Shown: piece after piece, positions 16,501 through 45,390 of the stretch
How the letters are laid out: each line of letters begins with the position of its first letter
Position numbering within the stretch: position 1 is the stretch's first letter
From: Halobacteriaceae archaeon
GTDB lineage: Archaea; Halobacteriota; Halobacteria; Halobacteriales; Halobacteriaceae
Direction: 5' to 3'
DNA: 64,000 nt
Assembly (NCBI GenBank): GCA_042216675.1
Contig: JBDGTS010000008.1
Location: 32,001 to 96,000 of the forward strand
The notes under the pieces: generated by a model
Told to the model about the DNA's origin: nothing
What the model saw: the letters and a program-made list of their open reading frames with translations, nothing else
Databases searched by the model: none
Position numbers and translations under genes: made by a program

Positions 16501-17237
16501 GACACCGAGCGGCCGTCCATGTAGATGTCGAAGACGGGGCTGTCGTCCTGTCCGCCGCCCTGTTGGTCGAGTCGGAGGACGCCCGTGACGGTGACGTGGT
16601 CGCCGGGCGAGACGACGCCCGTCAGGTCGTCCTCGACGTTCACGTCGATAGACTGGGGCGTCTCGCCCCCGCGTAGGCCCTCGGGGCTCTCCTGAATTCG
16701 GAGTTTTTGGGAGTCCACGAACTCCGACTGGTCGACGTTGAGTTGGAACGGCCCCTGTCGCTCACAGCCCTCGCACTCGTGGGGTTCCTGATACGTGCCA
16801 CTGGACTGGGGGACGTAGGTGAGCGTGCCACAGCGCTGGCACTCGAAGGCCGCCTCCTGCACCTTCGGGCGCACGTCGGTGGCCTTGCGAATCATCCCCT
16901 TCACGGCCACCATCGTCGAGACGTGCTCTGAACGGAGGTCCCGAATCTCGGTGGCCTCGACGCCGGAGAGGCGGACGTGAGCCTGTCCGAGACTCACGTC
17001 GACGGGCAAATCGTAGAGGCGCAGGGCCTCCTCGGCGTACTCCTGCAGTTGGTCCGGTTGCGCGACGAAGTCCTCCGCGAGGTCCGGGTCGAACTGGTAC
17101 AGGTCCGCCCACTCGACCCCGAGGGACTTCTGCTCGCGCGGGTAGCGGCGCGCCAACTCACCGATGTCGTCGCTGTAGTAGCGTCGGTAGAACTGCTCGA
17201 ACCGTTCGACGAGTTCCTGATTCTCGGCGCGCGCCAT
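13557..17237 (-). CDS. mcm: Replicative helicase MCM, intein-containing (about 697-aa extein)
   Basis: Zn finger CQRC...CEGC, QESPE, RGDLHMLLIGDPGTGK|SQLL, GLTAA, LEAGA, DELDKM, AANP and the SRFD arginine finger. Confidence 0.98.
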   Translation of the reverse strand: MARAENQELVERFEQFYRRYYSDDIGELARRYPREQKSLGVEWADLYQFDPDLAEDFVAQPDQLQEYAEEALRLYDLPVDVSLGQAHVRLSGVEATEIRDLRSEHVSTMVAVKGMIRKATDVRPKVQEAAFECQRCGTLTYVPQSSGTYQEPHECEGCERQGPFQLNVDQSEFVDSQKLRIQESPEGLRGGETPQSIDVNVEDDLTGVVSPGDHVTVTGVLRLDQQGGGQDDSPVFDIYMDGRSVSVEDEEYEDMDIDDEDKADIAELSDSDDIYEMMVDSIAPAIYGHRQAKLAMALQLFSGVTKHLPDGSRTRGDLHMLLIGDPGTGKCLDGDTPITLADGSEVGIREFVEANLDDPKPIDDGVYDTVDAEVPSLTPDGRIEPRRATKVWKREAPEEMYRIATASGRVLTVTPSHPLFVQSGGDFRPIEASDLDEGDFVATPRHLPEAGDDELAIEFRRSKSPNAVRLDPPSEWTPWLARFVGYVVAEGYATLNDDNTADLRVTNNDRAVLDDVTEALDRLGVNWTERNSRSGTAAAEIICTSSELVRFLHGIEPAVLDGSAAQRVPESLFRASPEIKAAFLEAYVEGEGHVSSAEREITVASMSETLLGGVRSLLLSLGVGSSLESRHNGSYRLRISGEDFVRYVESVGFVTERKSSAAEAFGDADRNTNRDVVPDVGDDLRRVREALALSQRECGVPRTTYQHYERGDRNPSRESLDAVVSAFEDRLEHLRTMRAKIAAGDWDDITAVRRELRLSQQTLADGMDVTQTAISYYEREDVAPDGGHTTDARDAVLNTIDEALAAADDVRALRSLAESDVRWDRIESIETVEPDDEWVYDLEVGGTHSYVSNGIVSHNSQLLQYIRHISPRSVYTSGKGSSSAGLTAAAVRDDFGDGQQWTLEAGAVVLADKGVAAVDELDKMEAGDRSALHEALEQQTVSISKAGINATLKARCSLLGAANPKHGRFDQYEGIGEQIDLEPALISRFDLIFTVTDQPDEERDAELADHILKTNYAGELNTHRTEMTQSNVSEAEVESVTDDVAPAIEPELLRKYVAYSRRNIFPTMTEAAMARIREFYVDLRAQGTGEDAPVPVTARKLEALVRLAEASARVRLADEVTEADADRVIEIVRKTMEDVGMDPETGEFDADVIETGTSKSQRDRIRGIKDVIDDLQDEYDEGAPLEKVLDAAEADGMERSKAENEIENLKQKGEIYQPSPDHFRTL
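14661..16247 (-). mobile_element. 529-aa intein in the MCM Walker A motif, with LAGLIDADG homing endonuclease and two HTH-like domains
   Basis: Begins CLDGDT directly after GTGK and ends IVSHN before Ser+1. Contains block B VTPSHP, LAGLIDADG-type FVGYVVAEG and FLEAYVEGEG, and block F VYDLEV. Confidence 0.96.
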
Positions 17238-17276
17238 GCCGGCGTAGGTAGCGCCCCCTCCCCTATGAACCTAGCG

Positions 17277-18710
17277 TCAACGGTCGTCGAGGGCCGCGCC
17301 CACGTCAGTCGGGTACGTGTCGGGCAGATAGCGCCCCATGTCGAGTTCGCGGTACGGGAACTCGCGCAAGGCGTCGTTCTCGACGTGCGGGGAGTCGTGG
17401 CGCTGGAGGTGGTCGACGGCGGCCTCGCGCAGTCGCTCGACGACGGCCGGCCGTTCGGGGGCCTGATTGTCCGTCTCGCGTGGGTCCGCGGCCACGTCGA
17501 ACAGCTGCTCGCGACCGCCGTTGGCCATCCAGACGTACTTCCAGTCGCCCTCGCGCACCATCATCGTGAAGTTCGGGCCGATGCTGAAGTGACTCGTCTT
17601 CCGTGGCGTCTGGTGGACCGCGAACAGTCGGTCGTGGCTCTCGCCGCCCAGAACGTCCACGCCGTCGCGCAGGTCTTGGTCCCCCGCCGCCGTCGTGCAG
17701 ATGCCGAGGACGTCCGCCAGCGACACCAAGTCGTCCCGGCGCTCCCCGGCGGGGAGTTCCGCGGGCCAACTCACGAGGAACGGCACCCGCGACGACTGCT
17801 CGAACATCGACGTCTTGCCCCACCCGTGGTGGTCGCCGAGCATCTCGCCGTGGTCCGACGTGAAGACGATGAGGGTGTTCTCGCCGTCCTCGCGGGCCTC
17901 CACGGCGTCGAGGACGCGCCCGATTTCCCGGTCCAGTTGCGTGACGAGGCCGTAGTAGTACGCCCGGGCGACCCGGGCCGTGTGCGCGCCGGTGTCGTCG
18001 GTCCGGGCTTTCCACCAGTGGTAGTTCTGGGCCGGTATCTTCTCGTCCATCAGGTCCAGTTCCTGATTGTCACGGATGGGGTCGGGCACCGCGTCGGGGT
18101 CGTACAGTTCGTCGAACGGCGGCGAGGGGTTGAAGCGAGGATGGGGATTCGAGAAGGAGACGAAGCCGAAAAACGGCCCGTCGCGCTCCTCGATTTCGGC
18201 CGTCGCCCGGTCGGCAATCCACGCCGACTTGCGGTCTTCGGGGTCGAGCGGGCAGGACTGTGGGAGCATGTTCATCGCGCCCACCTTCCCGCCGTCCCAC
18301 GACGTGTCGGCGTCGACTTCGGCGGCGTAGTCGCCGCCGTCGAGTTGCAGGTCGTAGCCGAGGTCGATGTCGCCGGGGTGGGCGTGGTACTTCCCCACGC
18401 CGAACGTCTCGTAACCGCGTTCTCGCATCGCGCGGGCGAGGAACGGCCCGCACTCGTCTTCGAGGTGGTGGGCGTCCCGCTTGTCGTTGCCGAGGTAGCC
18501 CGTCCGGCAGGGGTCCGAGCCGGTGCGCACGACGTGTCGCGCGGGGACGCAGATGGGCGCTGGCGAGTAGGCGTTCGTGTAGGAGACGCCGCGGTCCACC
18601 AGCCGGTCGAGGTTCGGCGTGTGGACGTGGTCGTGGCCGAGCGCGTTGATGGTGTCGAAGCGCTGCTGGTCCGTCATCACGAGCAGGACGTTCGGCTGGT
18701 CCGCTGGCAT
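17277..18710 (-). CDS. Sulfatase (Cys-type, formylglycine-dependent)
   Basis: PNVLLVMTDQQRFD, TPNLDRL, the CVPAR (CxPxR) motif, GKYH, FTSDHGEMLGDH. Confidence 0.93.
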   Translation of the reverse strand: MPADQPNVLLVMTDQQRFDTINALGHDHVHTPNLDRLVDRGVSYTNAYSPAPICVPARHVVRTGSDPCRTGYLGNDKRDAHHLEDECGPFLARAMRERGYETFGVGKYHAHPGDIDLGYDLQLDGGDYAAEVDADTSWDGGKVGAMNMLPQSCPLDPEDRKSAWIADRATAEIEERDGPFFGFVSFSNPHPRFNPSPPFDELYDPDAVPDPIRDNQELDLMDEKIPAQNYHWWKARTDDTGAHTARVARAYYYGLVTQLDREIGRVLDAVEAREDGENTLIVFTSDHGEMLGDHHGWGKTSMFEQSSRVPFLVSWPAELPAGERRDDLVSLADVLGICTTAAGDQDLRDGVDVLGGESHDRLFAVHQTPRKTSHFSIGPNFTMMVREGDWKYVWMANGGREQLFDVAADPRETDNQAPERPAVVERLREAAVDHLQRHDSPHVENDALREFPYRELDMGRYLPDTYPTDVGAALDDR

Positions 18711-18792
18711 TACCCATCAGTCAGCGGCGGGCTACCTCAACGTTGCGCCGTCGTCCAGTAGAGTTATCTTTCCGTTCGCTCTCACCCCGTCC

Positions 18793-20052
18793 ATGTCGCT
18801 GCTTCGCCGCCTCTGGGACCGCCGCGAGTCGTCCCCGCTTTTCGTGGCGCTCTCAGTTCTCACCGTGGCCGTCCTCCTCTCGTGGCCCGTCGTCGACTTC
18901 TATCTCCGACAGGTCGGCGTCGGCATCCCGTTCGGATTCAACGACTTCGGGGCGTACATGAGCGCCATCCACCGCGTCCGAACCGGCGGCTCGCTGTACC
19001 AGATGACCCACGGTAGCTACCACGGCAGTTACCTCTACCCCCCCGTGACGGCCCTGATTTTCCACCCGTTCCTCGGCTTCGACTTCAAGACGGGCGCCAT
19101 CATCTTCGTCTCCGCCTCGCTCGTCCTCCTCTGGGTCGGCGTCGAGTCCGTCGCTCGCGTCCTCGGCTATGAACTCGGCGTCGCGGAGCGACTGCTCCTG
19201 TTGGTCGCGCTCTTTGGCTTCCAGCCCGCGCTTCGGGACTACAAGTGGGCGCAGATTTCCTCGCTCCTCGCCGCCCTCCTCTGTTTCGCGTTCTACACGG
19301 GCGAACTCGCCGAGGAGACGGACGACGACCGGTATCGCTACGCCAGCGGCGCGCTGACGACACTCGGAAGCGCGTTCAAGCTGTTCTTCGCCACCTCCGG
19401 CGCGCACCTCCTTCGGGACCGGAAGCGCTTCGCCGGCGCGATGGCCGCCGCGGGCGTCCTCGCCGTCGTCTCCGTCGTCGCGTTCGGCGTCGAGATGCAC
19501 CGCGACTACGTCGACGTGTTGATGTGGGGCAAGGGTTGGGGTGGCACCCGCGCGCCGTACCTCTGGGACACCTCCGCGGCGTACCGGCCGCTCTACATGC
19601 TCGGCAACCTCGGGATGGCCGCTCGCGTCGTGGGCGTGTTCGGCACCGTCGGCCTGACGCTGGCCGCCCGCCGCGACGACTCCGCCGCCGCGCGCCGCGC
19701 GACGTTCGCGCTCGGCGTCGCCGTCATTCCCCTATTGGCGCCGCTCGCCGACAGCCACGACCTCGTGGTGATGCTCCTCCCGGCGGTCATCCTCCTCGCC
19801 CTCGAACTCGACCGCCCGGACGGCTATCCGTGGATTCCGGTCCTCGCGGTCCTGCTCTTTCACCTCCACCGCTACTCCGTCGAGGTGGCGATAAATCGCC
19901 CGGACCTGCTCCCCGTCGGGTCGTCGTTCGTCCGCGCTCACGCGCCGTGGTTCCAGACCGGGATGTGGGCGACGTTCCTCCTCGTCGGTCTCGCGGCGGT
20001 CCGGGTCGCCGAACACGCCGCACTGCCGGACTGGGCGGACGCAGTGCGCTGA
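18793..20052 (+). CDS. GT-C membrane glycosyltransferase, GT87/DUF2029-like
   Basis: Multi-TM protein with NDFGAY, YLYPP, AQIS and FKL motifs. Confidence 0.8.
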   Translation: MSLLRRLWDRRESSPLFVALSVLTVAVLLSWPVVDFYLRQVGVGIPFGFNDFGAYMSAIHRVRTGGSLYQMTHGSYHGSYLYPPVTALIFHPFLGFDFKTGAIIFVSASLVLLWVGVESVARVLGYELGVAERLLLLVALFGFQPALRDYKWAQISSLLAALLCFAFYTGELAEETDDDRYRYASGALTTLGSAFKLFFATSGAHLLRDRKRFAGAMAAAGVLAVVSVVAFGVEMHRDYVDVLMWGKGWGGTRAPYLWDTSAAYRPLYMLGNLGMAARVVGVFGTVGLTLAARRDDSAAARRATFALGVAVIPLLAPLADSHDLVVMLLPAVILLALELDRPDGYPWIPVLAVLLFHLHRYSVEVAINRPDLLPVGSSFVRAHAPWFQTGMWATFLLVGLAAVRVAEHAALPDWADAVR

Positions 20053-20116
20053 CCGCTCGCGGCGCCCCGGCGCCGTGGAGACAGTTTTAACCGAGCGACC
20101 GTTCGCTTGGACAACT

Positions 20117-21436
20117 ATGGACTTCGACGGGCGACTGACTCGCCGGCGGTGGCTCTCTTCGCTGGCCGCCGCCACGGGGAGTATCGCTGGCTGCGCGGCG
20201 CCCCTCGGGGACGGCACGTCGGCCGACAGCGACGCGCCGTCGTCCGATTCCGACCCGACCACGAGGGCCGGCGGCGCCGGCGATGACTCGGCGTGGCCGA
20301 CGTTCCGTGGCGACGACAGAAACACCGGGTGCGCGCTGAACGACCACGCCCCGGCCGACTACCCGGAGCGGAAGTGGACCGTGTCCATCGGCGACGGCGT
20401 CTGGAGCAGCCCGGTCGTCGCCGACGGCCGTCTCTACATCGGCTCGATGGACTACAAGGTGTACGCGATAGACGCGGCCACCGGCGAGATAGATTGGACC
20501 TACGAGACCGACGGGCCGGTCCAATCGACGCCAACCGTCGCCGACGGCCGCGTGTACGTCGGCTCCTTCGACAAGCACGTCTACTGTCTCGACGCCGAGA
20601 CGGGCACGAAGCAGTGGTCTCACGAGACGGCCGGACTGGTCAACAGCAGTCCCACCGTGGACGACTCTCGGGTGTACATCGGCAGCGGCGTCATCGGCGT
20701 CGGGGAGGTACACTCGTATCTCGAATCGAGCGGCGTCGAACCGGAGGGTGGCGGGCTGTACGCCCTGAACCGCGAGACGGGGGCGCTCGAGTGGCGCCGG
20801 TATCCGACCTACCGAATCAGTAGCACGCCGGCGGTCGTGGACTCGACCGTCTACATCGGCCTCACGGACGGGGAGCCGAACCGGCCGCTGATAGCGGCGC
20901 TCGACGCTTCGAGCGGCGACGCCGAGTGGGAGTTCGAGACGAACAACGCGGCGATAACGAGTCCCTCGGTGCAGTCCGGTCGGGTCTACTGTGCGACGTT
21001 CTTCGGAACTGTCCACGCTCTCTCCACCGAGACTGGCGAGGAGGCGTGGGGCTTCAACATCGGTGACGGCGACATCCGGGGCTCGACCGCCGTCTGTGAC
21101 GGGTCCGTCTACGTCCCGGCGTCGGGCAACAAACTGGGGGAGCGCTCGGACAACCCGGTGCTGTACTCGCTCTCGGTGGACGGGGACGTGCAGTGGGAGC
21201 ACGAGATACCCGGCGCTCGGCAGATGGGGAGTAGCCCCGCCGTGACGAGCGACGCGATATACGTCGGCACGCACTTCCGCAACGGCGGCGGCGGGATGTA
21301 CGCCGTGAGCCACGCCGGTGAGCGCCTGTGGGGCAGAGAGGTCGAGGACGGGGAAGGCGTGGGGAGCAGCCCCGCCGTCGACGACGGCACGCTCTACTAC
21401 GGCGCGGACAACGGCATCGTGTACGCGCTGGAGTAG
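20117..21436 (+). CDS. Tat lipoprotein with PQQ-like beta-propeller repeats
   Basis: TRRRWL twin-arginine signal, IAGC lipobox, WPTFRGD, and repeated SSPVV/STPTV...YIGS...AIDAATG..W blades. Confidence 0.9.
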   Translation: MDFDGRLTRRRWLSSLAAATGSIAGCAAPLGDGTSADSDAPSSDSDPTTRAGGAGDDSAWPTFRGDDRNTGCALNDHAPADYPERKWTVSIGDGVWSSPVVADGRLYIGSMDYKVYAIDAATGEIDWTYETDGPVQSTPTVADGRVYVGSFDKHVYCLDAETGTKQWSHETAGLVNSSPTVDDSRVYIGSGVIGVGEVHSYLESSGVEPEGGGLYALNRETGALEWRRYPTYRISSTPAVVDSTVYIGLTDGEPNRPLIAALDASSGDAEWEFETNNAAITSPSVQSGRVYCATFFGTVHALSTETGEEAWGFNIGDGDIRGSTAVCDGSVYVPASGNKLGERSDNPVLYSLSVDGDVQWEHEIPGARQMGSSPAVTSDAIYVGTHFRNGGGGMYAVSHAGERLWGREVEDGEGVGSSPAVDDGTLYYGADNGIVYALE

Positions 21437-21494
21437 CCGCGCACCGCACGGAAATACGTCATTAACTATAATGTGGGTAGTGCCATAGGGAGTC

Positions 21495-24215
21495 GTGCCA
21501 CCAAACGATACTGGCGGGGACGAGGGACGCACAGCGACGACAGACGACCTCCGACTCACCCGACGGACAGCGATGGCACTGCTCGGCGTCGGCGGCGCGG
21601 CGGCCGCCGGCGCTGGCTCGGCGGCGGCGACACACGACAAGGGGAACTCCGGCGCGCCGACGCGGCCGTGGAATCAGCACGTCGACGCTCAGGACCACGA
21701 CCTGACGAACGTCAGGGACCTCTCGACGGAGACGCTCACCGTCGACAACGTCTACACGCGTGCCCGGTGTGCCGACGTGTTGGTGTGGCGAGACGAGAGC
21801 GGGACGCTGTTCGCGGACAGTGCCGAGGAGACGCTGTACGAGGGCGACGACTTCACGGCCGCCGTGCAGGCGGCTCTCGACGGTCTCACGGACGGCCGCA
21901 CGTCGAAAGAGCGCGTCGTCGTGGCCACGTCGGGGACGATGGGGCCCCACGAGTGGGACGGCGACGTCGAGGCCATCGACGTCCCGAGTCACACGATTCT
22001 CGACCTCTGCGGGACCATCTTCGTCGAGGACGAGGGGGAGGCGCTCGTGCGACCGCTCCGGGCGCTCAACGCCGAGAACATCGAGATTCCGCACGTCCGC
22101 ATCGTGGGCAACTTCCGCGCGGCCATCTGGTTCCGGAGCGTGTTCAACGTGAAGTTCGGGCACATCGACATTCGCACGCCCGAGGACAGCATCATCTCGG
22201 GCACGGGCGGCGGGGTCCGCATCGACGGTTTCGCGAACGGGCGCGGCGACGACACCGTTCGCTGTAAAGACATTCAGGTTGACAGCGCCTACATCGAGAA
22301 CACCGTCGGCCACGCCTTCGAGACGTACGCGGTGGACCGCATTCAGGTCGGACAGGTCATCGCGAACAGGCCGAACTTCGCGGGCGTCCTCCTCAACGAC
22401 ACGCGCGACGCGACGGTCGGTGCCGTCGTCGGGAAGGAGGTGGACGTGGGCGGCGGCTACGCCGCCTTCCGCGTCGCCAACGGCTGCAAGGACGTGACCT
22501 GCGACCAGGTCGTCTGCCGGCGCGGCGCGCGCGGCGTCTTCGGCGTCTCGGGGTGTACCGACATCACCGTCGGCGAGGTCAACATCCAGCAGACGGACGC
22601 CAACGGCATCCTCATTCAGGACTGCCAGCGCTTCTCCATCAACGGCGGCGTCGTGAAGAACTGCTTCGGCGACGCCATCCGCGTCGACTCGCGCGACTCC
22701 GACAGACACGACCCCGCGGAGGGCGTCTCGGTGTCGAACGTCCGCGTCGTGGACACCCGCGAGGAGAAACAGCAGACCAACGGCATCTACGAGTCCGGTC
22801 CCGACACGGGGAACAACCGCTTCGTGGACAACGACTTGCGCGACGCCGGCACGGAGGCGAACATGCGGCTCTTTTCGGCGAGCAGTGTCGTCCGCGACAA
22901 CATGGCCGGCGGCGTGGACCACGGCACGGTGACGCTCTCCAGTGGAAGCACGCCCGCCGCGCGCGTCACCGGCGTCACCGACAAAGGCCCCTCGACGCTC
23001 GCCCTCCGGGCGAAGACGCGGGAGCCGCCGTCGTCACCCTTCGGGTACGACCACCGGTTCGAGTGGACCGGCAGCCAGTGGGACCTCGTCATCGAGTGGC
23101 AGACGGACCCCGGCGAGGACGTGCCCCTCGACTACATCGTCGACCGGCCACAGGCCAACATCGGCGAGACGCCGACCATCCCGCCGATACAGTTCGAGGG
23201 CCCCATCACCGCCGGCACCTATCGGCTGAACGCCGTCCACTCGGGACTGGCGCTCGAAACGGCGGCCGCCGACGCCGCGCCGGGCACCAACGTCCAGCAA
23301 GGCATCTGGGAGGACACCGACTACCAGAAGTGGACGGCAGTTCCCCTCGACGCCTACGAGGACCAGTTCCGAATCGAGAACTTCGCCAGCGGCGCGGTGC
23401 TCGGCGTCGAAGGTGGTTCGATGAACGACGGTGCGAACGTCAACGTCCAGTCGTGGTCCGACGTGCCGCACCAACGCTGGACCATCGAGGAGTACGGGAA
23501 CGGCCAGTACGCCGTCCGCGCGGTCCACTCCGGGCAGGCGCTCAACGTCGCCGGCGAGGACACCAACGACGGCGCGAACGTCGTCCAGTGGCCCTACGGC
23601 GGCGAGGGCGCCGGCAACGAGCTCTGGGACTTCGAGCAACAGGCCGTCGGCGGCGTCAGCGCCGGCATCGTCGACGACTTCGAGGACGGGAATCTCGACG
23701 AGTACGACGGGCAGACCGGAAACTACACCGTCAACAGCGACGCGCCGGTGGCCTCCGGCAGTCAGAGCCTGAAGAGCGACTCGGGCGGCGCCATCATCTC
23801 GATGGATGGCCTCGACCGCTACCCTGCCGAGGGGACGACGTTCTCCGCGAAAGTGGGGTACACGTCGGCGAACCCGACCATGGGTATCGCTTTCGGCGCG
23901 CAGGACGCCTCGTCGTTCTACTTCGCCCGCGTCTACCGCCCGGACGACTCCGACCCCCGCCTCCAACTGTACTCCCCGGAGAGCGGGAAACTCATCGGCG
24001 GCACGCTCTCCGGCCCGCTCACCGCGAACGCGCTGTACGAACTGGTCGTGGACTGGGCCGAGGGCGGCGAGTTCACGCTGACCATCAACGACCCCGACGG
24101 CAACGAACTCGAATCCCGGACTGCGACCGACGACGTGGGCATCGTCGGCGGCGGCGTCGGCACGCGGAACACGGCCATCCTCGACGAGTATCGCATCGAC
24201 TCGGGCACGCAGTAG
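21495..24215 (+). CDS. Tat-secreted right-handed beta-helix protein with ricin-B (CBM13-like) lectin and C-terminal beta domain
   Basis: TRRTAM signal; parallel beta-helix repeats in the N-terminal half; QKW/QRW/ELW ricin repeats with HSG and GANV motifs. Confidence 0.8.
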   Translation: MPPNDTGGDEGRTATTDDLRLTRRTAMALLGVGGAAAAGAGSAAATHDKGNSGAPTRPWNQHVDAQDHDLTNVRDLSTETLTVDNVYTRARCADVLVWRDESGTLFADSAEETLYEGDDFTAAVQAALDGLTDGRTSKERVVVATSGTMGPHEWDGDVEAIDVPSHTILDLCGTIFVEDEGEALVRPLRALNAENIEIPHVRIVGNFRAAIWFRSVFNVKFGHIDIRTPEDSIISGTGGGVRIDGFANGRGDDTVRCKDIQVDSAYIENTVGHAFETYAVDRIQVGQVIANRPNFAGVLLNDTRDATVGAVVGKEVDVGGGYAAFRVANGCKDVTCDQVVCRRGARGVFGVSGCTDITVGEVNIQQTDANGILIQDCQRFSINGGVVKNCFGDAIRVDSRDSDRHDPAEGVSVSNVRVVDTREEKQQTNGIYESGPDTGNNRFVDNDLRDAGTEANMRLFSASSVVRDNMAGGVDHGTVTLSSGSTPAARVTGVTDKGPSTLALRAKTREPPSSPFGYDHRFEWTGSQWDLVIEWQTDPGEDVPLDYIVDRPQANIGETPTIPPIQFEGPITAGTYRLNAVHSGLALETAAADAAPGTNVQQGIWEDTDYQKWTAVPLDAYEDQFRIENFASGAVLGVEGGSMNDGANVNVQSWSDVPHQRWTIEEYGNGQYAVRAVHSGQALNVAGEDTNDGANVVQWPYGGEGAGNELWDFEQQAVGGVSAGIVDDFEDGNLDEYDGQTGNYTVNSDAPVASGSQSLKSDSGGAIISMDGLDRYPAEGTTFSAKVGYTSANPTMGIAFGAQDASSFYFARVYRPDDSDPRLQLYSPESGKLIGGTLSGPLTANALYELVVDWAEGGEFTLTINDPDGNELESRTATDDVGIVGGGVGTRNTAILDEYRIDSGTQ

Positions 24216-24872
24216 CAACTGCGGCCACCCCCTTTCGCGGGCCGGGGTCGGCGACGCACACCCCCCGACTGCACGTCCGTGAGCGGTTCGAGGATGGGGG
24301 TGTCACCGGCGGCGACGAGCACGTCGGCCACGGAGCGTTCCGACGCCCGACCGCGGTCGCCCCCGAAGCGATAGGTCGCGCTAGTCTCGTTGAGGGACAC
24401 GCTCTCGCGGTTTCGGACGATGCCGATGGCGTCGGTCGCGGCGTCGAGGACTGCCTCGACGCGCGCCCCCGCGTCGACGACGTCGCGCTGGTCGCGGTAG
24501 TACCTGACCGCGTCCGTGACGAGCGACGCGAGGTGGCCCCACTGGTCCTGGTGTCGCTCTCTGACGAGATAGTCGGTGACGCCGGCGGAGATGGCACGAC
24601 TCGCGACCGCTTCGGTCCCCTCGCCGGTGCACAGAATGAACGGCAGCGTCGGGACCGTCGCTCGAACGGCTTCGAGGAGGGCGACCCCGTCCGTCTCCGG
24701 CAGGTCGTGGTCGCTGACGACGCACTCGATTCGCGGTTCCCCCTCGATGACGTCGATGGCCGTCCCGACCGACGCCACGGGGACGACCTGAATCGGTCCG
24801 TGGTCTGGAAGCGCGCTCACAGGCGGCGAAGGCTTCGTCCGCCGTCACCACCAGAACACGGAGCGTCGGCAC
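24216..24872 (-). pseudogene. Frameshifted and truncated response-regulator receiver + PAS gene
   Basis: The N-terminal VPTLRVLVVTADEAFAA is in a different frame from the receiver body (CVVSDHDLPETDG, FILCTGEG, AISAGVTDYL). The body frame has no stop until 23933, inside the convergent gene. Confidence 0.7.
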
Positions 24873-24928
24873 GGCCCTGCCTCGAACGACTTCCGCACGG
24901 ACAATCAAACTGGCTAACGCCCGTCCGG

Positions 24929-27073
24929 TCAGTCCGCCTTCGACAGTTCGACGACGAAAACCGCGCCCTCGGGGTCGTTGTCTTCGACCCGGACCGTTCC
25001 CCCGTACGCGTCGACGAGTTGTTCGACGAGGTAGAGCCCGATTCCCGTTCCCCCGCTGTCGAGGCCCTTTTCGCCTTTCCCGAACACCGCGTCCTTCTGT
25101 GCGTCGGGCACGCCCGGTCCGTTATCGGCGATCCGGACCTCGACCACCCCGTCCCCTTCGCTCGCCGTGACGGTGACTTCGGGCACCTCCGAGTCGTTGT
25201 GCTGGATCGCGTTCGTGAGGAGGTTTCGGAACACGGAGTCGAGCAGTTCGTCCGCCAGAACCGAACAGCGTGGGATCGCCCCCTTGACGGTGACGGCGGC
25301 GCTCTGATACTCCGACCGGACCTCCTCGACCTCGGCGTGGAGCGTCGAGCGCAGTTCGACCGGCTTCAGGGTGTCGTCGGTCGAGCGCATCACGTCCGCG
25401 AGGTCGCGTGCCGTCTCGGTGAGTTCGACCGCGTGTGCGGCGCTCTCACGAATGGTCTCCAGATACCCCTGCCCCGCCTCGTCGACGTACGTGTCCAGTA
25501 CGTCCGCGTAGGCGGTCACGAGTTGGAGGTCGTTCCGGATGTCGTGACGGAGCATCTGGTTCATCAAGTCGAGGTTGTCGCGTTGCTCCGCGAGTTGCTG
25601 TTCGTACCGCTTGCGCGCCGTGATGTCCTGAATCACGCCGTCGTACAGGACTTCGCCGTCGTCCTCGTGAGCGATGGCCGTCACGCTCCCCCAGATCTCT
25701 TCGCCGTCGAGCGTGACGAGTTCGAGTTCTCTCTCGGTCACGGCCCCCTCCTCACGGAGCGTCTCGCTGAACGCCTCCCGCTGTTCGGGATCGGCGTACA
25801 GTTCCTTCACCGTCTGGTCGCGGAGCGCGTCGACCGAGTCCGCGTCGAAGATGTCCGCCATCGCTTCGTTCAGGAACCGAAATTCGCCGTCCGGCCCCGC
25901 GGTGTTCTGATAGACCCCGATCGGGAGGTTCTCGACGAGGCGCTCGTACCGCCTGAGTTCCGCTTCGCGTTCCTTCCGGTCGGTGATGTCCTGAACGACC
26001 TTGTGGAGATGCTCAGTCCTCGTCGCGTCTTCGGTGAGCGCGGCGGTGACGGCGACGTCCTTCGTCTCGCCGTCGAGGGTCTGGAACTCGACCTCGTGTC
26101 TGACCCGCTCCTGGTCCGACGAGCGGAGGGCCTCGATGAGGGTGTCGCGCTCCTCGGGGTCGGCGTACACCTCGGCGACGCGGTGGTCGCGGAGTTCCTC
26201 CGCCGACTCGGCGTTCAACAGCGAGACGAGCGCCGGGTTGACGTATTCGAACGTCCCGTCCGACGTCGCCTCGGTTCGCAGGACCCCACTCGGGACCGCC
26301 TCTAGAAGGCGTTGTGCGGCTTCGAGTTCCTGTTCGGACTGTTTTCGGTCCGTGATGTCCTGCTGGAAGCCGACGAAGTGCTCTACGGTCTCCCCCACCC
26401 GGACGGGCGCTATCGTGACGCGGTTCCAGAACTCGGTGCCGTCCCGTCGGTAGTTCCGCAGTTCGACCGTAACCGACTTTTCGGCGTCGACCGCCTCTCG
26501 AATCTCCTCGACCGGTTCGGACGCCGTCGCGTCCCCCTGCAGGAACCTGCAGTTGCGCCCGAGGACCTCCTCCTCGGCGTAGCCGGTCAGTTTCTGAAAC
26601 CCGTCGTTCGCGTAAATCAGGGGGTTGTCCTCACGACTGGGGTCGCTGACCGTGACGCCTATCGGTGCCGCGTCGACGGCCTGCACGAGTCGGTCACGGT
26701 CCCGAAGGCGTTCGCCCGGCGTCCTGATCGGCGAGACGCGCGCGAGGACGTGTGGCTCGCCATCGACGGTGACCGACGAGAGACGCGCCTCGACGAGCGG
26801 ACTCGCCCCCGAATCGGGGGTCACCGTCCACTTGTGCGTTTCACCCTCGGGGTCTTCTCGCCGGACGTGTGCCAGAATCCCGTCCGACGAGCGCTGACTG
26901 GCAGTCGCGACCGACGTGACCGTCTCCCCCCGAATCCGCTCGCGGTCGCGGTCGGCCAGTTCGCAGAACCGCCGATTGCACTCTCGAATCCGTCCCGTTT
27001 CCGATTCGATGAGCAACAGCCCATCGGGATTCTCGTCGAAGAGTGTCTGGTACGCCGCCTCGGAAACGCTCAT
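24929..27073 (-). CDS. Multi-PAS sensor histidine kinase with LOV domain
   Basis: DNPLIYANDGF, GRNCRFLQG and NYRRDG LOV motifs; LRHDIRN H-box; NLLTNAIQH, DNGPG and GTGIGL HATPase boxes. Confidence 0.93.
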   Translation of the reverse strand: MSVSEAAYQTLFDENPDGLLLIESETGRIRECNRRFCELADRDRERIRGETVTSVATASQRSSDGILAHVRREDPEGETHKWTVTPDSGASPLVEARLSSVTVDGEPHVLARVSPIRTPGERLRDRDRLVQAVDAAPIGVTVSDPSREDNPLIYANDGFQKLTGYAEEEVLGRNCRFLQGDATASEPVEEIREAVDAEKSVTVELRNYRRDGTEFWNRVTIAPVRVGETVEHFVGFQQDITDRKQSEQELEAAQRLLEAVPSGVLRTEATSDGTFEYVNPALVSLLNAESAEELRDHRVAEVYADPEERDTLIEALRSSDQERVRHEVEFQTLDGETKDVAVTAALTEDATRTEHLHKVVQDITDRKEREAELRRYERLVENLPIGVYQNTAGPDGEFRFLNEAMADIFDADSVDALRDQTVKELYADPEQREAFSETLREEGAVTERELELVTLDGEEIWGSVTAIAHEDDGEVLYDGVIQDITARKRYEQQLAEQRDNLDLMNQMLRHDIRNDLQLVTAYADVLDTYVDEAGQGYLETIRESAAHAVELTETARDLADVMRSTDDTLKPVELRSTLHAEVEEVRSEYQSAAVTVKGAIPRCSVLADELLDSVFRNLLTNAIQHNDSEVPEVTVTASEGDGVVEVRIADNGPGVPDAQKDAVFGKGEKGLDSGGTGIGLYLVEQLVDAYGGTVRVEDNDPEGAVFVVELSKAD

Positions 27074-27106
27074 GCGGGGGGTTCCCCTGTGTCAGTTTAA
27101 ATGCTT

Positions 27107-27402
27107 TGAGACCGCCCTGGACTCGCGATACTCGTCCGCGCGCTCTCGACTCGGTGTACTCGCGAGGCCGCCCGGAGTCGAATCTCAGTCACTCCCGTTC
27201 GCTCGTTTCACTCGCTCACCTCCCGCTCCCTGCGTCGAATCCGCGGCCCCGTGAGCCGCTCACGATGTTCGCGGCAGCATGGACCGCCCGGATTCGAACC
27301 TCGGTCGCTGGGTCGAACCCCTACGTGCGGTCTTTCTGCCCGCGTTTTTTGCGAGGGAGCGAAGCGACCGAGGAAAAAGCGGGATGGGGCCGCCGTGGCT
27401 CG
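27107..27402. repeat. Distal array of degenerate tRNA-Pro 3'-end repeats with hairpin spacers
   Basis: Copies of TGGGACCGCCCGGATTCGAACC at about 27107, 27166, 27280 and 27385. Segment 27226-27300 aligns with 28852-28928, and 27325-27392 aligns with 28729-28805. Confidence 0.85.
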
Positions 27403-27435
27403 CTGGACTCGTCACTCACGCCGCCCCGACGAGGT

Positions 27436-27453
27436 CGGGAACGGCCGTTCCCG
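27436..27453. other. Perfect 18-bp palindrome just downstream of the lipoprotein stop codon
   Basis: CGGGAACGGCCGTTCCCG; overlaps a second hairpin CCCGAC-GAG-GTCGGG at 27425-27439. Possibly a terminator or RNA-stability element. Confidence 0.45.
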
Positions 27454-27454
27454 G

Positions 27455-28528
27455 TCAGAATTCGGGGAAGCGTTCGAGTTCCCCCGTTGGGACCGTCTGC
27501 CTGCCGACGACGAAGTCCCCGTCCACGGATTCGGTGACCTCGAATCCCCCAATCTCCGTCGGCAGGAAGTCCTCGCTGTCAGCGGCGGCCGACGCGCGCG
27601 CCTCGTCGGTGAACGGAAACGCGAACACCTTCTCGGTCTCTTGGTCCCCGACTCTCCAGCCGATTCCCGTTCCGAGTGCGCCCTCGGGCAGGCTGTTCGT
27701 ACTCCCGCTCACGTACACCGTCCCGTACGTCACCCGAACAAACGTATCTGCCTGGACAATTTCGAATAGCCGAGCGACTTTCGCATCGACCTCGTGAGCC
27801 CGCGCAACCGCGCCGGCCCGAGCATCGACGAACGTCTCGAGCAGGTCGGCCCCCTCGGGGTCGAATACGGCGATGACGACCGAATCACTGACGCCGATCG
27901 CGTTTCCGGTCTCGTTGTTCTCGATGATAGTGACGCCCTCGTACTCCGTCGGGCCGCTGGCCCACCCCTCGTTCAGATACGCGTCGACGGCGCTCTGCTC
28001 GTCGAACGTCCCGAGGTAGACGTGCGCCGCAGCGCCGCTCTCGGACCCGTCTCGCCACGGTGTCCGGATGCGGATGGAATCGTTGACCTGTCCCGGTTCG
28101 ACGTGCTGTGGCGTGTGCTCGTCGCCCGGAAATTTGCCCGACTGACTCGATAGCAATCCGTCCTGAAGACTGGCCTTCATCGAGCGGATCGCTGCGGCGT
28201 CGACGTACCATAGCTCGAAGTTGACCGTCCCGTCGACTGTCGAGGCTGGCGCTGGTATCCAGTCGGCGTACGGATAGTCGCCGGGCGTTCTGGTTTCGGT
28301 ATCGGTCCCGCCGTCTTCAGTCTCTGTCGTGGCGTCGGTCGCGTCGCCTTCTGTCTCCGTTCCGGTTTCAGTCGTCGCCGTCGTCGCGGTGCTGTCACCG
28401 CCCCCGGGTAGCGTCGCTGTGTCCTGCGTCCGGTCGTCCGTCCCGTCACCGCTACACCCGGCCACCAGCACGGCCCCAACTAACCCGCCACGTTGGAGGA
28501 GTCGGCGTCGGCTGTAGTTGGCACTCAT
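27455..28528 (-). CDS. Tat lipoprotein of unknown function with Thr/Glu-rich linker
   Basis: SRRRLL twin-arginine signal, VAGC lipobox, T-rich stalk and an acidic globular domain. Confidence 0.85.
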   Translation of the reverse strand: MSANYSRRRLLQRGGLVGAVLVAGCSGDGTDDRTQDTATLPGGGDSTATTATTETGTETEGDATDATTETEDGGTDTETRTPGDYPYADWIPAPASTVDGTVNFELWYVDAAAIRSMKASLQDGLLSSQSGKFPGDEHTPQHVEPGQVNDSIRIRTPWRDGSESGAAAHVYLGTFDEQSAVDAYLNEGWASGPTEYEGVTIIENNETGNAIGVSDSVVIAVFDPEGADLLETFVDARAGAVARAHEVDAKVARLFEIVQADTFVRVTYGTVYVSGSTNSLPEGALGTGIGWRVGDQETEKVFAFPFTDEARASAAADSEDFLPTEIGGFEVTESVDGDFVVGRQTVPTGELERFPEF

Positions 28529-28531
28529 CGT

Positions 28532-28560
28532 GCTAATTGTGAACGTGAATCACAATTAGC
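28532..28560. promoter_or_regulatory. Operator-like inverted repeat upstream of the lipoprotein gene
   Basis: GCTAATTGTGA-N7-TCACAATTAGC: perfect 11-bp AT-rich arms, 3 nt from the start codon. Confidence 0.65.
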
Positions 28561-28682
28561 GTTTTGATAGGAATGATGACGGGCGTCCGAAAACTGGCCT
28601 CCCGGGACCTTTCCCGCAGAACGCTACACAGTTGGTGACCCGAACCGACGACGATTTGCCGAAGGGGGCTGGGGCCTTCCGG

Positions 28683-28906
28683 TGGTGCCCCGTGGATTCG
28701 AACCGGGGTCGCGACCCCGACTCCGACCGTGCGGTCTTTTTTCCCACGTTTTTGCGAGCGAGGTCGCTGCGCGACCGAGCGACGCCAAAAGTGGAATGGG
28801 ACCGCCCGGATTCGAACCTCAGTCGGACGCGCTCGCTTCGCTGTGCGCGACCTCCCTGCTTCGAATCCGGGGCCCCCATGCGCCGCTCACGGTGTTCGCG
28901 GCAGCA
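28683..28906. repeat. Proximal array of tRNA-Pro 3'-end repeats with hairpin spacers
   Basis: GGATTCGAACCGGGGTCGCG at 28694-28713 and ATGGGACCGCCCGGATTCGAACC at 28796-28818 duplicate the tRNA 3' region. An inverted copy TTCGAATCCGG lies at 28860-28870. Confidence 0.9.
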
Positions 28907-28977
28907 TGGGACCGCCCGGATTCGAACCGGGGTCGCGGGCACCCAAGGCCCGAAGTATACCACTAACCCACGGTCCC
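28907..28977 (-). tRNA. tRNA-Pro(TGG)
   Basis: GGGACCG acceptor stem pairs with CGGTCCC-A; anticodon arm CGGGC-CTTGGGT-GCCCG; T-arm GGTTCGAATCC; CCA not encoded. Confidence 0.97.
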
Positions 28978-45107: not shown

Positions 45108-45317
45108 TCGCCGTCCGGCTTTTCGACCCCTCTCTCCGGTCTCATCAGAACGCAGAGCGTTCTGGTTGGCTCACGAGACGCTCTGCGTCTCGCGAACGTC
45201 GCCAGAAAGGTCCGGGTGCGAGAATCGAACCCGATGGCGAGACTCGCGTCGCTCGTCTCGCGTGGTTCGATTTCGCTGTCCGGCTTTTCCACTCCTCCCG
45301 CTGGTCGTCGTGAAAAA
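45108..45317. repeat. tRNA-His 3'-end repeat with fold-back unit and twin hairpins
   Basis: Exact 24-bp duplicate GTCCGGGTGCGAGAATCGAACCCG at 45210-45233 versus 45318-45341. An inverted copy lies at 45264-45283, and hairpins lie at 45146-45164, 45174-45192 and 45237-45261. Confidence 0.9.
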
Positions 45318-45390
45318 GTCCGGGTGCGAGAATCGAACCCGCGTCCCAGCCTCCACAAGGCTGGAGGATAACCACTACCCCAACCCGGAC
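45318..45390 (-). tRNA. tRNA-His(GTG) with genome-encoded G-1
   Basis: G-TCCGGGT...ACCCGGA-C acceptor; anticodon arm CAGCC-TTGTGGA-GGCTG; T-loop GGTTCGATTC. Confidence 0.97.

What the first reader, a model, noticed from the sequence alone, without database searches (positions are those of the whole stretch)
27107..28977. Modular array of ~110-bp hairpin cassettes delimited by copies of the tRNA-Pro 3' end, with a cargo gene in the middle
Seen: behind tRNA-Pro(TGG) its 3' end (plus strand TGGGACCGCCCGGATTCGAACC) recurs about six more times, at about 28797, 28683, 27385, 27280, 27166 and 27107. Several adjacent copies are 105-114 bp apart. The spacers are of two reusable types. Type A is GTGCGGTCTTT followed by a T-run/A-run stem with a central mini-hairpin (28729-28796; 27325-27384). 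Type B is a fold-back unit plus GCCGCTCACG.TGTTCGCGGCAGC (28819-28906; about 27185-27279). On the plus strand the order is B-A, lipoprotein gene, A-B, tRNA, so the unit order differs on the two sides and a single block duplication does not explain it. No integrase or transposase gene is present in the window. Inference: small non-coding cassettes, and once a gene-sized one, integrated repeatedly at the tRNA end through a trans-acting enzyme, giving an integron-like or CRISPR-like array anchored on a tRNA.
Basis: partly seen in the sequence, partly recalled or inferred. Interest (0 to 1): 0.85.

Follow-up and report, generated by a model that had tools for sequence, protein, structure and literature searches.

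The report
Hairpin repeats copying tRNA gene ends
Behind tRNA-Pro, and behind about half of all tRNA genes in this and most other salt-loving archaea, lie short hairpin-forming DNA units, each built from a forward and a reversed copy of that tRNA's own tail, a widespread pattern that fits no repeat system I could test it against.

Summary
Behind tRNA-Pro(TGG) (28907-28977, minus strand) there are two strong copies of its last 22 nt (28797: 22/22; 27279: 20/22). Three more are weak (28683, 27163, 27107) and one is at chance level (27385). The A and B spacer types and the B-A/gene/A-B order are real.

The locus is not special. In this genome 14 of 32 tRNA genes are followed by 1-3 units of 80-170 nt, each ending in that tRNA's own last 20-22 nt. 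Each unit is a small trailer hairpin plus a long hairpin: an imperfect reverse complement of the tRNA end, a family-specific core, then the tRNA end itself.

A diagnostic pattern occurs in 21 of 25 sampled genomes of the haloarchaeal order and in 1 of 126 from the rest of the phylum. Unit number and order differ between two species of one genus.

Cas1, Y1/HUH transposase, IS110 transposase, reverse transcriptase and integron integrase are each absent from unit-rich genomes. This rules out membership of the integron, CRISPR and REP/RAYT families.

Best reading: non-autonomous, attachment-site-like hairpin modules. They accumulate, duplicate and exchange by recombination at the T-loop-to-3'-end block. 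A co-transcribed structured RNA remains a live rival. I found no description in seven literature searches.

The parts
28907..28977 (-). tRNA-Pro(TGG) gene. Its last 22 nt (28907-28928) are the repeated block, called e here.
   Evidence: ARAGORN; Rfam RF00005 61.2 bits.
28797..28906 (-). Unit B, near copy, 110 nt. It has a trailer hairpin (about 28879-28906) and a long hairpin (28797-28878). The 3' arm of the long hairpin is an exact 22/22 copy of e (28797-28818). Its 5' arm is an imperfect reverse complement of e.
   Evidence: RNA fold of the tRNA-sense strand: -64.5 kcal/mol, z -4.89. Antisense strand: -52.8 kcal/mol, z -2.53.
28729..28796 (-). Type A element, near copy. It is a T-run, a purine-rich middle and an A-run, ending in a conserved GACCGC tail. 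It is a dispersed repeat and probably a two-way terminator module (my inference).
   Evidence: Sequence. The same element is at C18:15735-15790 and at the ends of contigs C10, C51 and C50. It is also behind tRNA-Gly genes of another genus.
28683..28728 (-). Short GC hairpin plus e', a variant tRNA-end copy (17/22). It matches tRNA-Pro for 20 nt upstream of and through the T-loop, but not in the T-stem or acceptor part.
   Evidence: (D1). Its tail was not found elsewhere in about 4 Mb of held sequence.
27455..28528 (-). Accessory gene for a predicted Tat-signal lipoprotein, 357 aa.
   Evidence: ORF. No Pfam family. No match at E<=1e-8 in 55 other genomes of the family. The nearest Atlas clusters are archaeal hypothetical proteins.
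27325..27384 (-). Type A element, far copy.
   Evidence: D3, D7, D13; hit at C1:59327.
27279..27324 (-). Short spacer plus a copy of e at 27279-27300 (20/22).
27163..27278 (-). Unit B', the far and decayed copy of unit B, 116 nt. Its e copy lies at 27163-27184 (17/22).
   Evidence: D2, D4, D5.
27107..27125 (-). Possible last, degenerate copy of e (17 of 18 letters with one gap). It overlaps the upstream region of the histidine kinase gene.
   Evidence: Its score of 12 equals that of a few background hits, so this part is uncertain.
45209..45316 (-). A unit of the same kind behind tRNA-His(GTG) (45317-45390), 108 nt. It ends in a 1-mismatch copy of the tRNA-His 3' end.

Best explanation
The finding is one local case of a family of 'tRNA 3'-end snap-back units' found across the haloarchaeal order.

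What is shown:
- A unit of 80-170 nt sits directly behind a tRNA gene.
- It consists of a short trailer hairpin and a long imperfect hairpin.
- The 3' arm of the long hairpin is a copy of that tRNA's own last 20-22 nt, from the T-loop to the discriminator base.
- The 5' arm is the imperfect reverse complement of that copy.
- The two arms enclose a core that belongs to one of a few families shared between different tRNAs and genera.
- Units stand in arrays of 1-5.
- The tRNA-end copy marks every unit boundary, and identity to the tRNA starts at T54, give or take two bases.

What is inferred:
- The units are non-autonomous, attachment-site-like DNA modules.
- They accumulate behind tRNA genes and are duplicated, lost, reordered and exchanged by recombination at the T-loop-to-3'-end block.
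- The recombination could be done by tyrosine recombinases acting in trans, by homologous recombination, or by slippage between the 22-nt copies.
- The hairpin keeps its two arms matched through intrastrand templating.
- The same process occasionally traps a gene. Here it trapped the lipoprotein gene, at the tRNA-near edge of an 11.7-kb insertion between tRNA-Pro and the MCM gene.

The array is not an integron, a CRISPR array, a REP/RAYT system or a retroelement. The description is close to certain; the confidence given is for the mechanism.
For: The pattern holds across the whole genome:
- 14 of 32 tRNA genes have at least one copy of their own last 22 nt (up to 5 mismatches) within 2.5 kb downstream.
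- At up to 3 mismatches the count is 13 of 32 downstream and 0 of 32 upstream. Copies of the tRNA's first 22 nt downstream: 0 of 32.
- Two intron-bearing tRNAs have units as well.

Anatomy:
- The left arms track unusual T-loops, as at His, Val, Lys and Gly.
- The whole tRNA-end copy is paired in predicted folds. T-loop positions are paired in 85-100% of 54 units, and 35 of 54 have at least 5 of the last 8 nt paired.
- There are compensatory changes in the first T-stem pair (10 of 46 sequences) and in a core stem pair (23 of 46).
- Identity to the tRNA extends a modal 2 nt (18 of 42 units), and 1-5 nt in 34 of the 42, beyond T54. The other 8 rows show 7-12 nt because the script anchored them on a later TTC.

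Distribution:
- The pattern occurs in 18 of 31 relatives, with 0 hits of the reversed control.
- It occurs in 21 of 25 genomes of the order and in 1 of 126 from the rest of the phylum.
- The type I core gave at least 118 stretches of DNA. All 80 listed titles are haloarchaea or unclassified haloarchaeal MAGs.

Turnover and shuffling:
- Unit number differs at 6 of 16 tRNA loci between two congeners. Filled and empty sites are aligned.
- Behind tRNA-Pro the two congeners carry the same modules in the orders a-b-c and c-b-a.
- 7 of 20 relatives have units behind tRNA-Pro(TGG), and the types differ.
- Identical tandem copies occur at L087 (3 copies), L099 and L102. One array reads X-Y-X-Y-Z.

Gene-scale accretion:
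- MCM starts 82-1182 nt behind tRNA-Pro in 6 relatives, against 11,670 nt here.
- The lipoprotein gene was not found in 55 genomes of the family.

Architectural precedent:
- In viral contigs, 27 of 32 loci with a palindromic T-loop site carry a tyrosine integrase of about 275 aa (PF00589, E 1e-19 to 1e-20). It starts 58-110 nt from a site built as reversed T-loop and T-stem, palindromic core, then a tRNA-like 3' end.
- Tyrosine recombinases are present in all 5 unit-rich genomes tested and in the window's genome.
Against: - No enzyme is tied to the units.
- Only 2 of 80 type-I-bearing 8-kb stretches hold an integrase-like hit, using a panel of 22 haloarchaeal recombinases.
- In the complete genome G016, 21 of 42 tRNAs have units. 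No copy of a tRNA end lies farther than 618 nt from its tRNA although 15 kb were searched, so there are no full-size elements there.
- The type I pattern has 0 hits in 2.9 million viral contigs.
- There was no BLAST match in the phage records.
- The viral integrase family with the look-alike site has no close relative in 31 haloarchaeal genomes.
- How the left arm comes to match each tRNA is not explained by any demonstrated step.
- Flanking direct repeats are sometimes longer than the tRNA end: e plus 33 nt at contig C45, and e plus an A element in G003. This fits plain homologous recombination or duplication as well as it fits a site-specific process.
- The tRNA-sense strand folds much better than the antisense strand, which points to selection on a single-stranded sense molecule, possibly RNA.
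Confidence: 0.5

Rival explanations
1. The units are functional structured RNAs. They are transcribed as tRNA 3' trailers and fold into hairpins that mimic the acceptor and T-arm stack of their own tRNA. They would be cut out by the tRNA end-processing enzymes. They could act as decoys, antisense regulators or processing and termination aids. Their DNA-level variability would then be secondary.
For: - The sense strand folds better than the antisense strand in 75 of 78 type I hairpins (mean difference -6.6 kcal/mol), 47 of 55 whole units and 53 of 75 trailer hairpins.
- Unit B has z -4.89 on the sense strand and -2.53 on the antisense strand.
- Stems covary.
- The type I core sequence is kept across many genera.
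- The tRNA-end copy runs exactly to the discriminator base, which is a boundary defined at the RNA level.
- In Haloferax volcanii a stable 3' trailer of about 60 nt from the tRNA-His precursor was seen by Northern blot (PMC3495736, passages read). That is a different organism, and the trailer was not shown to be such a unit.
Against: - Units are missing behind about half of the tRNAs and from 4 of 25 genomes of the order.
- Their number differs between congeners at 6 of 16 loci.
- Orthologous units diverge at least as fast as their flanks, by my reading of the alignments.
- Copies of the tRNA end decay, here at 27163 and 28683.
- A run of 4 or more T lies within 14 nt behind the tRNA in 12 of 35 arrays. 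T-runs are no rarer inside arrays (3.45 per kb) than after them (3.05 per kb).
- The fold asymmetry may come from purine-rich loops shared by descent.
Confidence: 0.25
2. No mobility and no dedicated site is involved. Each array arose locally by replication slippage, fold-back synthesis and unequal crossing-over around a highly transcribed tRNA gene, and then decayed. The similarity between arrays would reflect convergent sequence bias.
For: - Identical tandem units occur at L087 (3 copies), L099 (2 copies) and L102 (2 copies).
- A block duplication X-Y-X-Y-Z is seen in G016.
- Flanking repeats are sometimes longer than the tRNA end.
- Some arrays end in a left-half-only unit: 4 of 21 in G016 and 1 of 14 in G000.
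- No associated enzyme was found.
Against: - The same core families occur behind many different tRNAs and in many genera, with the arms matched to each tRNA. One example is the type I core with near-identical sequence at Arg, Asp, Thr and Lys in this genome.
- An identical 30-nt trailer module is combined with different cores at two tRNA-Gly genes.
- The order of the same modules is permuted.
- The junction at T54 is sharp.
- The pattern is restricted to one order, although tRNA genes are highly transcribed everywhere.
Confidence: 0.15
3. A dedicated trans-acting machine, integron-like, CRISPR-adaptation-like or HUH/RAYT-like, inserts cassettes one by one at the tRNA end.
For: - The array has a cassette-like look.
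- Hairpins with inverted 7-8-nt arms sit at the 3' end of each unit.
- The junction lies at G|TTC, which resembles the integron G|TT junction. That resemblance is recalled from memory, not tested.
Against: - Integron integrase TIGR02249: 0 of 5 unit-rich complete genomes over the cut-off, best 43.7 bits against 265.
- Cas1 is absent from the window's genome (80% complete) and from G003 and G019, both 99% complete.
- Y1 transposase is absent from G010, G015, G023 and G024 (99% complete, units present). It is present in G004, G011, G017, G022, G029 and G030, which have no pattern hit.
- IS110 transposase is present in 4 of 31 genomes.
- Reverse transcriptase is present in 0 of 31.
Confidence: 0.05

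Closest known systems
Attachment-site repeats of tRNA-targeting integrative elements, and their decayed cis-mobilisable remnants (tandem accretion at a tRNA 3' end)
   Same: - Direct repeats of the tRNA's 3' part, from the T-loop to the end, bound each module.
- Modules pile up behind the intact tRNA gene.
- A gene-sized accessory insert sits among them.
- Haloarchaeal examples of such att repeats are a 27-bp repeat of the tRNA-Lys end in Halobacterium R1 (PMC7002104, passages) and a 14-bp core in tRNA-Met for virus SNJ2 (PMC5861418, passages).
   Different: - The units are 80-170 nt and non-coding.
- They occur behind about half of all tRNAs.
- The same core families occur at many tRNAs.
- Every unit also holds a reversed copy of the tRNA end.
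- Integrase genes are almost never nearby (2 of 80).
- No full-size element was seen at 21 arrays of a complete genome.
Integrase-adjacent palindromic T-loop sites in viral contigs
   Same: The architecture is the same: reversed T-loop and T-stem, palindromic core, T-loop, T-stem, then an acceptor-like 3' end.
   Different: - There the site is single and lies 58-110 nt from a 275-aa tyrosine integrase.
- The tRNA-like end includes CCA.
- The integrase has no close relative in 31 haloarchaeal genomes.
- The haloarchaeal type I pattern is absent from the viral collection.
Integron cassette arrays with attC hairpins
   Same: - Each cassette has an imperfect inverted repeat at its 3' end.
- The order is modular and variable.
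- The boundary lies inside a conserved G|TT-type core.
   Different: - There is no integron integrase.
- There is no single attI platform; instead there are dozens of arrays, each on its own tRNA.
- The cassettes are almost all non-coding.
- The hairpin arms are copies of the host tRNA end.
REP/BIME/REPIN hairpin repeats with RAYT (Y1) transposases (PMC3116915, seen in a search listing only)
   Same: These are hairpin-forming intergenic repeats of about 100 nt, in families, without a coding gene of their own.
   Different: - Copies are confined to the 3' side of tRNA genes and tailored to each tRNA.
- The Y1 transposase distribution does not match.
The repeated units behind the Escherichia coli tyrT tRNA gene, each containing the tRNA-Tyr 3' end
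   Same: Tandem units behind a tRNA gene each end in a copy of the tRNA's 3' end.
   Different: That is one locus in one species. As far as I recall, those units lack a reversed copy and a shared core family across tRNAs.
CRISPR arrays
   Same: There is a repeat-spacer look, growth at one end is conceivable, and no enzyme gene lies next to the array.
   Different: - The repeated part is each tRNA's own end.
- The 'spacers' are a few hairpin families.
- Cas1 is not required.
- No CRISPR array was found in this genome by a simple scan.

Membership tests
Integron | An IntI-type integron integrase is encoded in the genome. | tested here: not met
   TIGR02249: 0 of 5 unit-rich complete genomes over the 265-bit cut-off; best 43.7 bits.
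Integron | A single attI/Pc platform sits next to intI, with mostly ORF-bearing cassettes. | tested here: not met
   At least 14 separate arrays lie behind tRNA genes in one genome. The units are non-coding, and there is one gene among the modules of this window.
Integron | An attC-like imperfect inverted repeat lies at the 3' end of each cassette. | tested here: inconclusive
   A hairpin with inverted arms is present in every unit. The arms, however, are tRNA-derived, and the attC consensus was not scored.
CRISPR-Cas array | The Cas1 adaptation integrase is present. | tested here: not met
   PF01867: no hit in G000, which is 80% complete. It is absent from G003 and G019, both 99% complete and unit-rich.
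CRISPR-Cas array | One constant repeat alternates with unique spacers of uniform length. | tested here: not met
   The repeated block differs for every tRNA. The intervening parts fall into a few shared families.
REP/REPIN with RAYT, or IS200/IS605-derived palindromic elements | Occurrence goes together with a Y1 (HUH) transposase. | tested here: not met
   PF01797 is absent from G010, G015, G023 and G024, which have units. It is present in 6 genomes without pattern hits. It is also absent from G000.
IS110 family with bridge RNA | A DEDD transposase of the IS110 type is present. | tested here: not met
   PF01548 is present in 4 of 31 genomes. It is absent from G016, which has 23 pattern hits.
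tRNA-derived retroelement (SINE-like) | A reverse transcriptase is available in the genome. | tested here: not met
   PF00078: 0 of 31 genomes.
tRNA-targeting integrative element or its remnant | Direct repeats of the tRNA 3' part flank the inserted DNA. | tested here: met
   Copies at 22/22 and 20/22, with chance expectation 0. The same holds at 13 of 32 tRNAs.
tRNA-targeting integrative element or its remnant | An integrase gene lies inside the element or beside it. | tested here: not met
   None among 27 ORFs around the array. Found in 2 of 80 type I stretches.
tRNA-targeting integrative element or its remnant | The element excises as a circle and the empty site is restored. | not testable with these tools
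   Only assembled contigs of DNA runs were available. Raw reads or outward PCR are needed.
tRNA-like or minihelix RNA element | A helix mimicking the acceptor and T-stem stack ends at the discriminator base. | tested here: inconclusive
   T-loop and T-stem positions are paired in 85-100% of 54 units. The acceptor strand is paired in 35 of 54 (at least 5 of the last 8 nt). The T-loop itself is paired, unlike in a true minihelix.
tRNA-like or minihelix RNA element | The unit is transcribed and processed at its boundaries. | not testable with these tools

The most novel reading that the evidence does not exclude
Haloarchaea carry a so far undescribed, order-wide system in which each tRNA gene seeds an array of snap-back copies of its own 3' end. 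A T-loop-directed recombination activity, using a host or widely shared tyrosine recombinase or an unknown enzyme, would cut at the T54 edge of both hairpin arms. That would let it swap cores between tRNA loci as cassettes, add and remove units, and now and then capture genes. The hairpins, single-stranded on the tRNA-sense strand, would be the recombination substrate. They may double as tRNA-specific decoy attachment sites or as RNAs.
Probability: 0.3. Interest if true: 0.88.

Novelty: new variant of a known kind. Interest (0 to 1): 0.74.

Why it matters
If the units are attachment-site-like modules, they show that tRNA 3' ends in a whole archaeal order act as standing landing and shuffling pads. 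That would bear on how genomic islands form next to tRNA genes, and on how integrases change target.

If the units are RNAs, each tRNA would carry its own tailored hairpin partner. I found no such class of tRNA-linked RNA described.

Either way the pattern has practical consequences:
- It breaks assemblies at tRNA genes, as seen here at contig ends and in the laid contigs, whose pieces end inside the repeats.
- It can mislead tRNA and pseudo-tRNA annotation.
- It gives a simple, testable marker: 21 of 25 genomes of the order against 1 of 126 outside it.
- Many cultured species carry it, so experiments are feasible.

Tried and rejected
- Rfam: nothing but the tRNA above threshold in the region. 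The sub-threshold hits (a microRNA precursor and tmRNA pieces) are T-arm look-alikes. There was nothing at the viral sites.
- RNA evidence: no RNA holder was listed for the stretch.
- Laying four DNA runs kept as contigs:
  - The laid pieces of the two source-like runs end inside the repeats, at 27350-27375 and 28906-28934.
  - There was one weak joint (27242 to 28730, one contig, depth 9.6, side 29, six extra letters, at 85% likeness), which I do not interpret.
- BLAST of the tRNA plus two units: no match in the phage records, and one 45-nt match on a Haloarcula megaplasmid.
- Test of G·T against A·C mismatches in the hairpin arms:
  - A·C-type mismatches outnumbered G·T (69 to 16).
  - The free-end alignment gave 64% Watson-Crick pairs even with shuffled partners, against 72% observed. 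I draw no conclusion.
- T-run census: it did not separate the RNA and DNA readings.
- CRISPR lead:
  - The start of many trailers (AAC, 2-5 nt, GTGAG) recalls the two mid-repeat motifs of haloarchaeal CRISPR repeats (PMC4872114).
  - That motif occurs 59 times in the genome against 7 for a reversed control, many of them inside genes.
  - Cas1 is dispensable. I kept this as a lead only.
- Idea that e' (28683) is the native end of a type I element: its T-stem would pair with the conserved CGTGG of type I cores, but its tail occurs nowhere else in about 4 Mb of held sequence.
- A copy of the tRNA-Pro end at the MCM-side edge of the 11.7-kb insertion: none found. The score-12 hit near 18813 lies inside a glycosyltransferase gene.
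- 'Left-half-only' units as the primary state: they are rare, at 4 of 21 and 1 of 14 arrays, and 1 of 21 and 2 of 12 unit-less tRNAs.
- Literature: seven full-text searches found no description of such units.
  - Subscription journals and older papers are not covered.
  - Supplements were closed. Supplementary tables of the Haloferax small-RNA paper may list trailer RNAs that bear on the RNA reading.


Full report
**The observation**

tRNA-Pro(TGG) lies at 28907-28977 on the minus strand. I call its last 22 nt 'e'.
- With up to 3 mismatches, e occurs three times in the 64-kb window: in the tRNA, at 28797-28818 (0 mismatches) and at 27279-27300 (2 mismatches). None is expected by chance.
- The copies at 28683 and 27163 have 5 mismatches each.
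- The copy at 27107 aligns over 18 letters with one gap.
- The local scores of these three (12-13) are matched by a few unrelated places in the window. Only their clustering and orientation speak for them.
- The copy at 27385 is at chance level.
- The two spacer types and their swapped order (B', A', gene, A, B, tRNA on the plus strand, all in direct orientation) are confirmed.

**The locus is not special**

I scanned the whole assembly: 2.15 Mb, 58 contigs, 80% complete.
- 14 of 32 ARAGORN tRNA genes are followed within 2.5 kb by at least one copy of their own last 22 nt (up to 5 mismatches).
- With up to 3 mismatches the count is 13 of 32 downstream and 0 of 32 upstream. For the tRNA's first 22 nt it is 0 of 32 downstream.
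- Four of the 18 negatives have fewer than 70 nt of sequence behind them.
- Two intron-bearing tRNAs missed by the first scan, Arg-TCT and Lys-TTT, carry two units each.
- tRNA-His in this window has one unit.

**Anatomy of a unit**

Read in the direction of the tRNA, a unit has four parts:
- It starts right after the discriminator base with a short, often T-rich stretch and a small hairpin. The loop of that hairpin often reads CGAAC, 2-5 nt, GTGAG.
- Next comes an imperfect reverse complement of e.
- Next comes a core hairpin of one of a few families. Type I is bounded by CAGGGAG and GACCGTGG. Types II to IV have other conserved stems.
- Last comes e itself.

The left arm follows unusual T-loops: His TTCGATT, Val TTCAACT, and Lys and Gly TTCAATT. 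It is therefore truly matched to each tRNA.

Identity to the tRNA begins at T54, give or take two bases. The upstream extension is 1-5 nt in 34 of 42 units, with a mode of 2 nt (18 units). The remaining 8 rows show 7-12 nt because the script anchored them on a later TTC.

Folding results:
- In predicted folds of 54 units, the T-loop and T-stem positions of e are paired in 85-100%. 35 of 54 have at least 5 of the last 8 nt paired.
- Unit B of the window folds to -64.5 kcal/mol (z -4.89) on the tRNA-sense strand. On the other strand it folds to -52.8 kcal/mol (z -2.53).
- An alignment of 46 type I hairpins from named species shows compensatory changes in the first T-stem pair (10 sequences) and in a core stem pair (23 sequences).
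- The sense strand is the better folder in 75 of 78 type I hairpins and in 47 of 55 whole units. These sequences are related, so the counts are not independent.

**'Type A' is a different thing**

It is a dispersed element with a T-run, a purine-rich middle, an A-run and a conserved GACCGC tail.
- It also lies behind tRNA-Arg(TCT) on contig C18, behind a protein gene at the end of C10, at the start of C51, and behind tRNA-Pro(GGG) at the end of C50.
- It lies behind tRNA-Gly genes of another genus.
- With T-runs on both strands it looks like a two-way terminator module. That is my inference.
- It often closes an array, and it can be followed by a further copy of e.

**Distribution**

- A pattern made of a reversed and a forward T-loop 20-50 nt apart hits 18 of 31 relatives, with 0 hits of the reversed control.
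- In a phylum-wide sample it hits 21 of 25 genomes of the haloarchaeal order and 1 of 126 others. That one hit is AT-rich and unlike a unit.
All 80 listed titles are haloarchaea or unclassified haloarchaeal MAGs.
- In the complete genome G016, 21 of 42 tRNAs have units in arrays of up to 5.

**Turnover**

- Two species of one genus (G003 and G016) differ in unit number at 6 of 16 tRNA loci.
- Filled and empty sites can be aligned.
- Behind tRNA-Pro the two species carry the same three modules in the orders a-b-c and c-b-a. This mirrors the B-A against A-B order of the window.
- Only 7 of 20 relatives have units behind tRNA-Pro(TGG), and the types differ.
- Identical tandem units and an X-Y-X-Y-Z array show that block duplication also happens.
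- Flanking direct repeats can be longer than e.

**Gene-scale insertion here**

- In 6 relatives the MCM gene starts 82-1182 nt behind tRNA-Pro. In this genome it starts 11,670 nt behind it.
- The stretch in between holds the array, the lipoprotein gene, a PAS histidine kinase, a response regulator, a lectin-domain protein, a PQQ propeller protein, a glycosyltransferase and a sulfatase.
- The lipoprotein gene was not found in 55 other genomes of the family at E<=1e-8. It does belong to archaeal clusters of hypothetical proteins.
- Its GC content is not deviant.
- No copy of e marks the MCM-side edge of the insertion.

**Candidate machines**

| Enzyme family | Result |
|---|---|
| Cas1 | Absent from G000 and from 2 of 5 unit-rich complete genomes |
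| Y1/HUH transposase | Absent from G000 and from four 99%-complete genomes with units; present in six without pattern hits |
| Reverse transcriptase | 0 of 31 genomes |
| IS110 transposase | 4 of 31 genomes |
| Integron integrase | 0 of 5 over the cut-off |
| Tyrosine recombinases | Present in every genome tested |

- An integrase-like hit lies in only 2 of 80 type-I-bearing 8-kb stretches.
- In G016 no copy of e lies beyond 618 nt, although 15 kb were searched behind each tRNA. One artefactual row is set aside.

**A precedent for the architecture**

- The generic pattern also hits viral contigs.
- 32 of the 80 listed loci have a fully palindromic site. 27 of these carry a related tyrosine integrase of about 275 aa, whose start lies 58-110 nt from the site (PF00589, E 1e-19 to 1e-20).
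- The site reads: reversed T-loop and T-stem, palindromic core, T-loop, T-stem, then an acceptor-like end with CCA. In some loci a terminator-like hairpin follows.
- These contigs are not haloarchaeal relatives, and the haloarchaeal type I pattern is absent from the viral collection.
- This shows only that integrase attachment sites can have this snap-back build.

**Reading**

Shown:
- the anatomy of the units;
- the matching of each unit to its own tRNA;
- the restriction to one order;
- the turnover and reordering;
- the lack of a tie to the enzyme families tested.

Inferred:
- The units are attachment-site-like, non-autonomous modules.
- They are added, duplicated, lost and exchanged by recombination at the T-loop-to-3'-end block.
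- The hairpin keeps its arms matched by intrastrand templating.

The strong sense-strand fold bias keeps open that the active form is single-stranded sense DNA or an RNA trailer. A stable 3' trailer of tRNA-His is known in Haloferax volcanii (PMC3495736, passages). How the reversed copy is first made remains unexplained.

**Novelty**

Seven full-text searches found no description. Older and subscription literature, and the supplements, were not visible. I file the finding as a new variant of a known kind, namely tRNA-end attachment repeats and hairpin repeats. I give a 0.3 chance that it is a distinct system of its own.

Noticed in passing
window 13557-17237 (-): The MCM helicase gene holds an intein with LAGLIDADG and HTH domains, giving 1226 aa in all.
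   Followed up: no
window 17238-28906: An 11.7-kb stretch with eight genes lies between tRNA-Pro and MCM. In 6 relatives the two are 82-1182 nt apart. This looks like a tRNA-flank island without a recognisable far-side repeat.
   Followed up: partly
window 45209-45390 (-): tRNA-His(GTG) is followed by a 108-nt unit of the same kind and by further hairpins.
   Followed up: partly
G000 C2:39375, C19:27191, C45:3499: This is another intergenic repeat. A 7-bp stem (GCGAGGCG/CGCCTCG) closes the same CGAAC...GTGAG loop that is seen in unit trailers, and GCGAGCGGGGAG-like stretches flank it.
   Followed up: no
G000 contig ends: C10 end, C51 start, C50 end, C8 start, C2 end, C37/C41: Several contigs of the assembly end inside type A elements or units. 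The laid pieces of the metagenome contigs likewise end at 27350-27375 and 28906-28934. These repeats seem to break the assembly at tRNA genes.
   Followed up: partly
L259, L260, L268, L304 and 28 more viral-contig loci: This is a family of viral contigs (GC 0.61-0.65). A 275-aa tyrosine integrase starts 58-110 nt from a palindromic site made of a reversed and a forward T-loop and ending in a tRNA-like 3' end.
   Followed up: partly
window 28683-28728: The copy e' matches tRNA-Pro for 20 nt upstream of and through the T-loop but not after it. That is the opposite of all other copies. Its T-stem part would pair with the conserved CGTGG of type I cores. This is unexplained.
   Followed up: partly
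G000 C18:15411-15524 and C45:10393-10507: Intron-bearing tRNA-Arg(TCT) and tRNA-Lys(TTT) were missed by the default ARAGORN run. Each is followed by two units.
   Followed up: partly
unit trailers genome-wide: The first 20 nt or so of many units carry an AAC...GTGAG motif pair. It is spaced like the two mid-repeat motifs that guide repeat duplication in haloarchaeal CRISPR adaptation (PMC4872114). This may be coincidence.
   Followed up: partly
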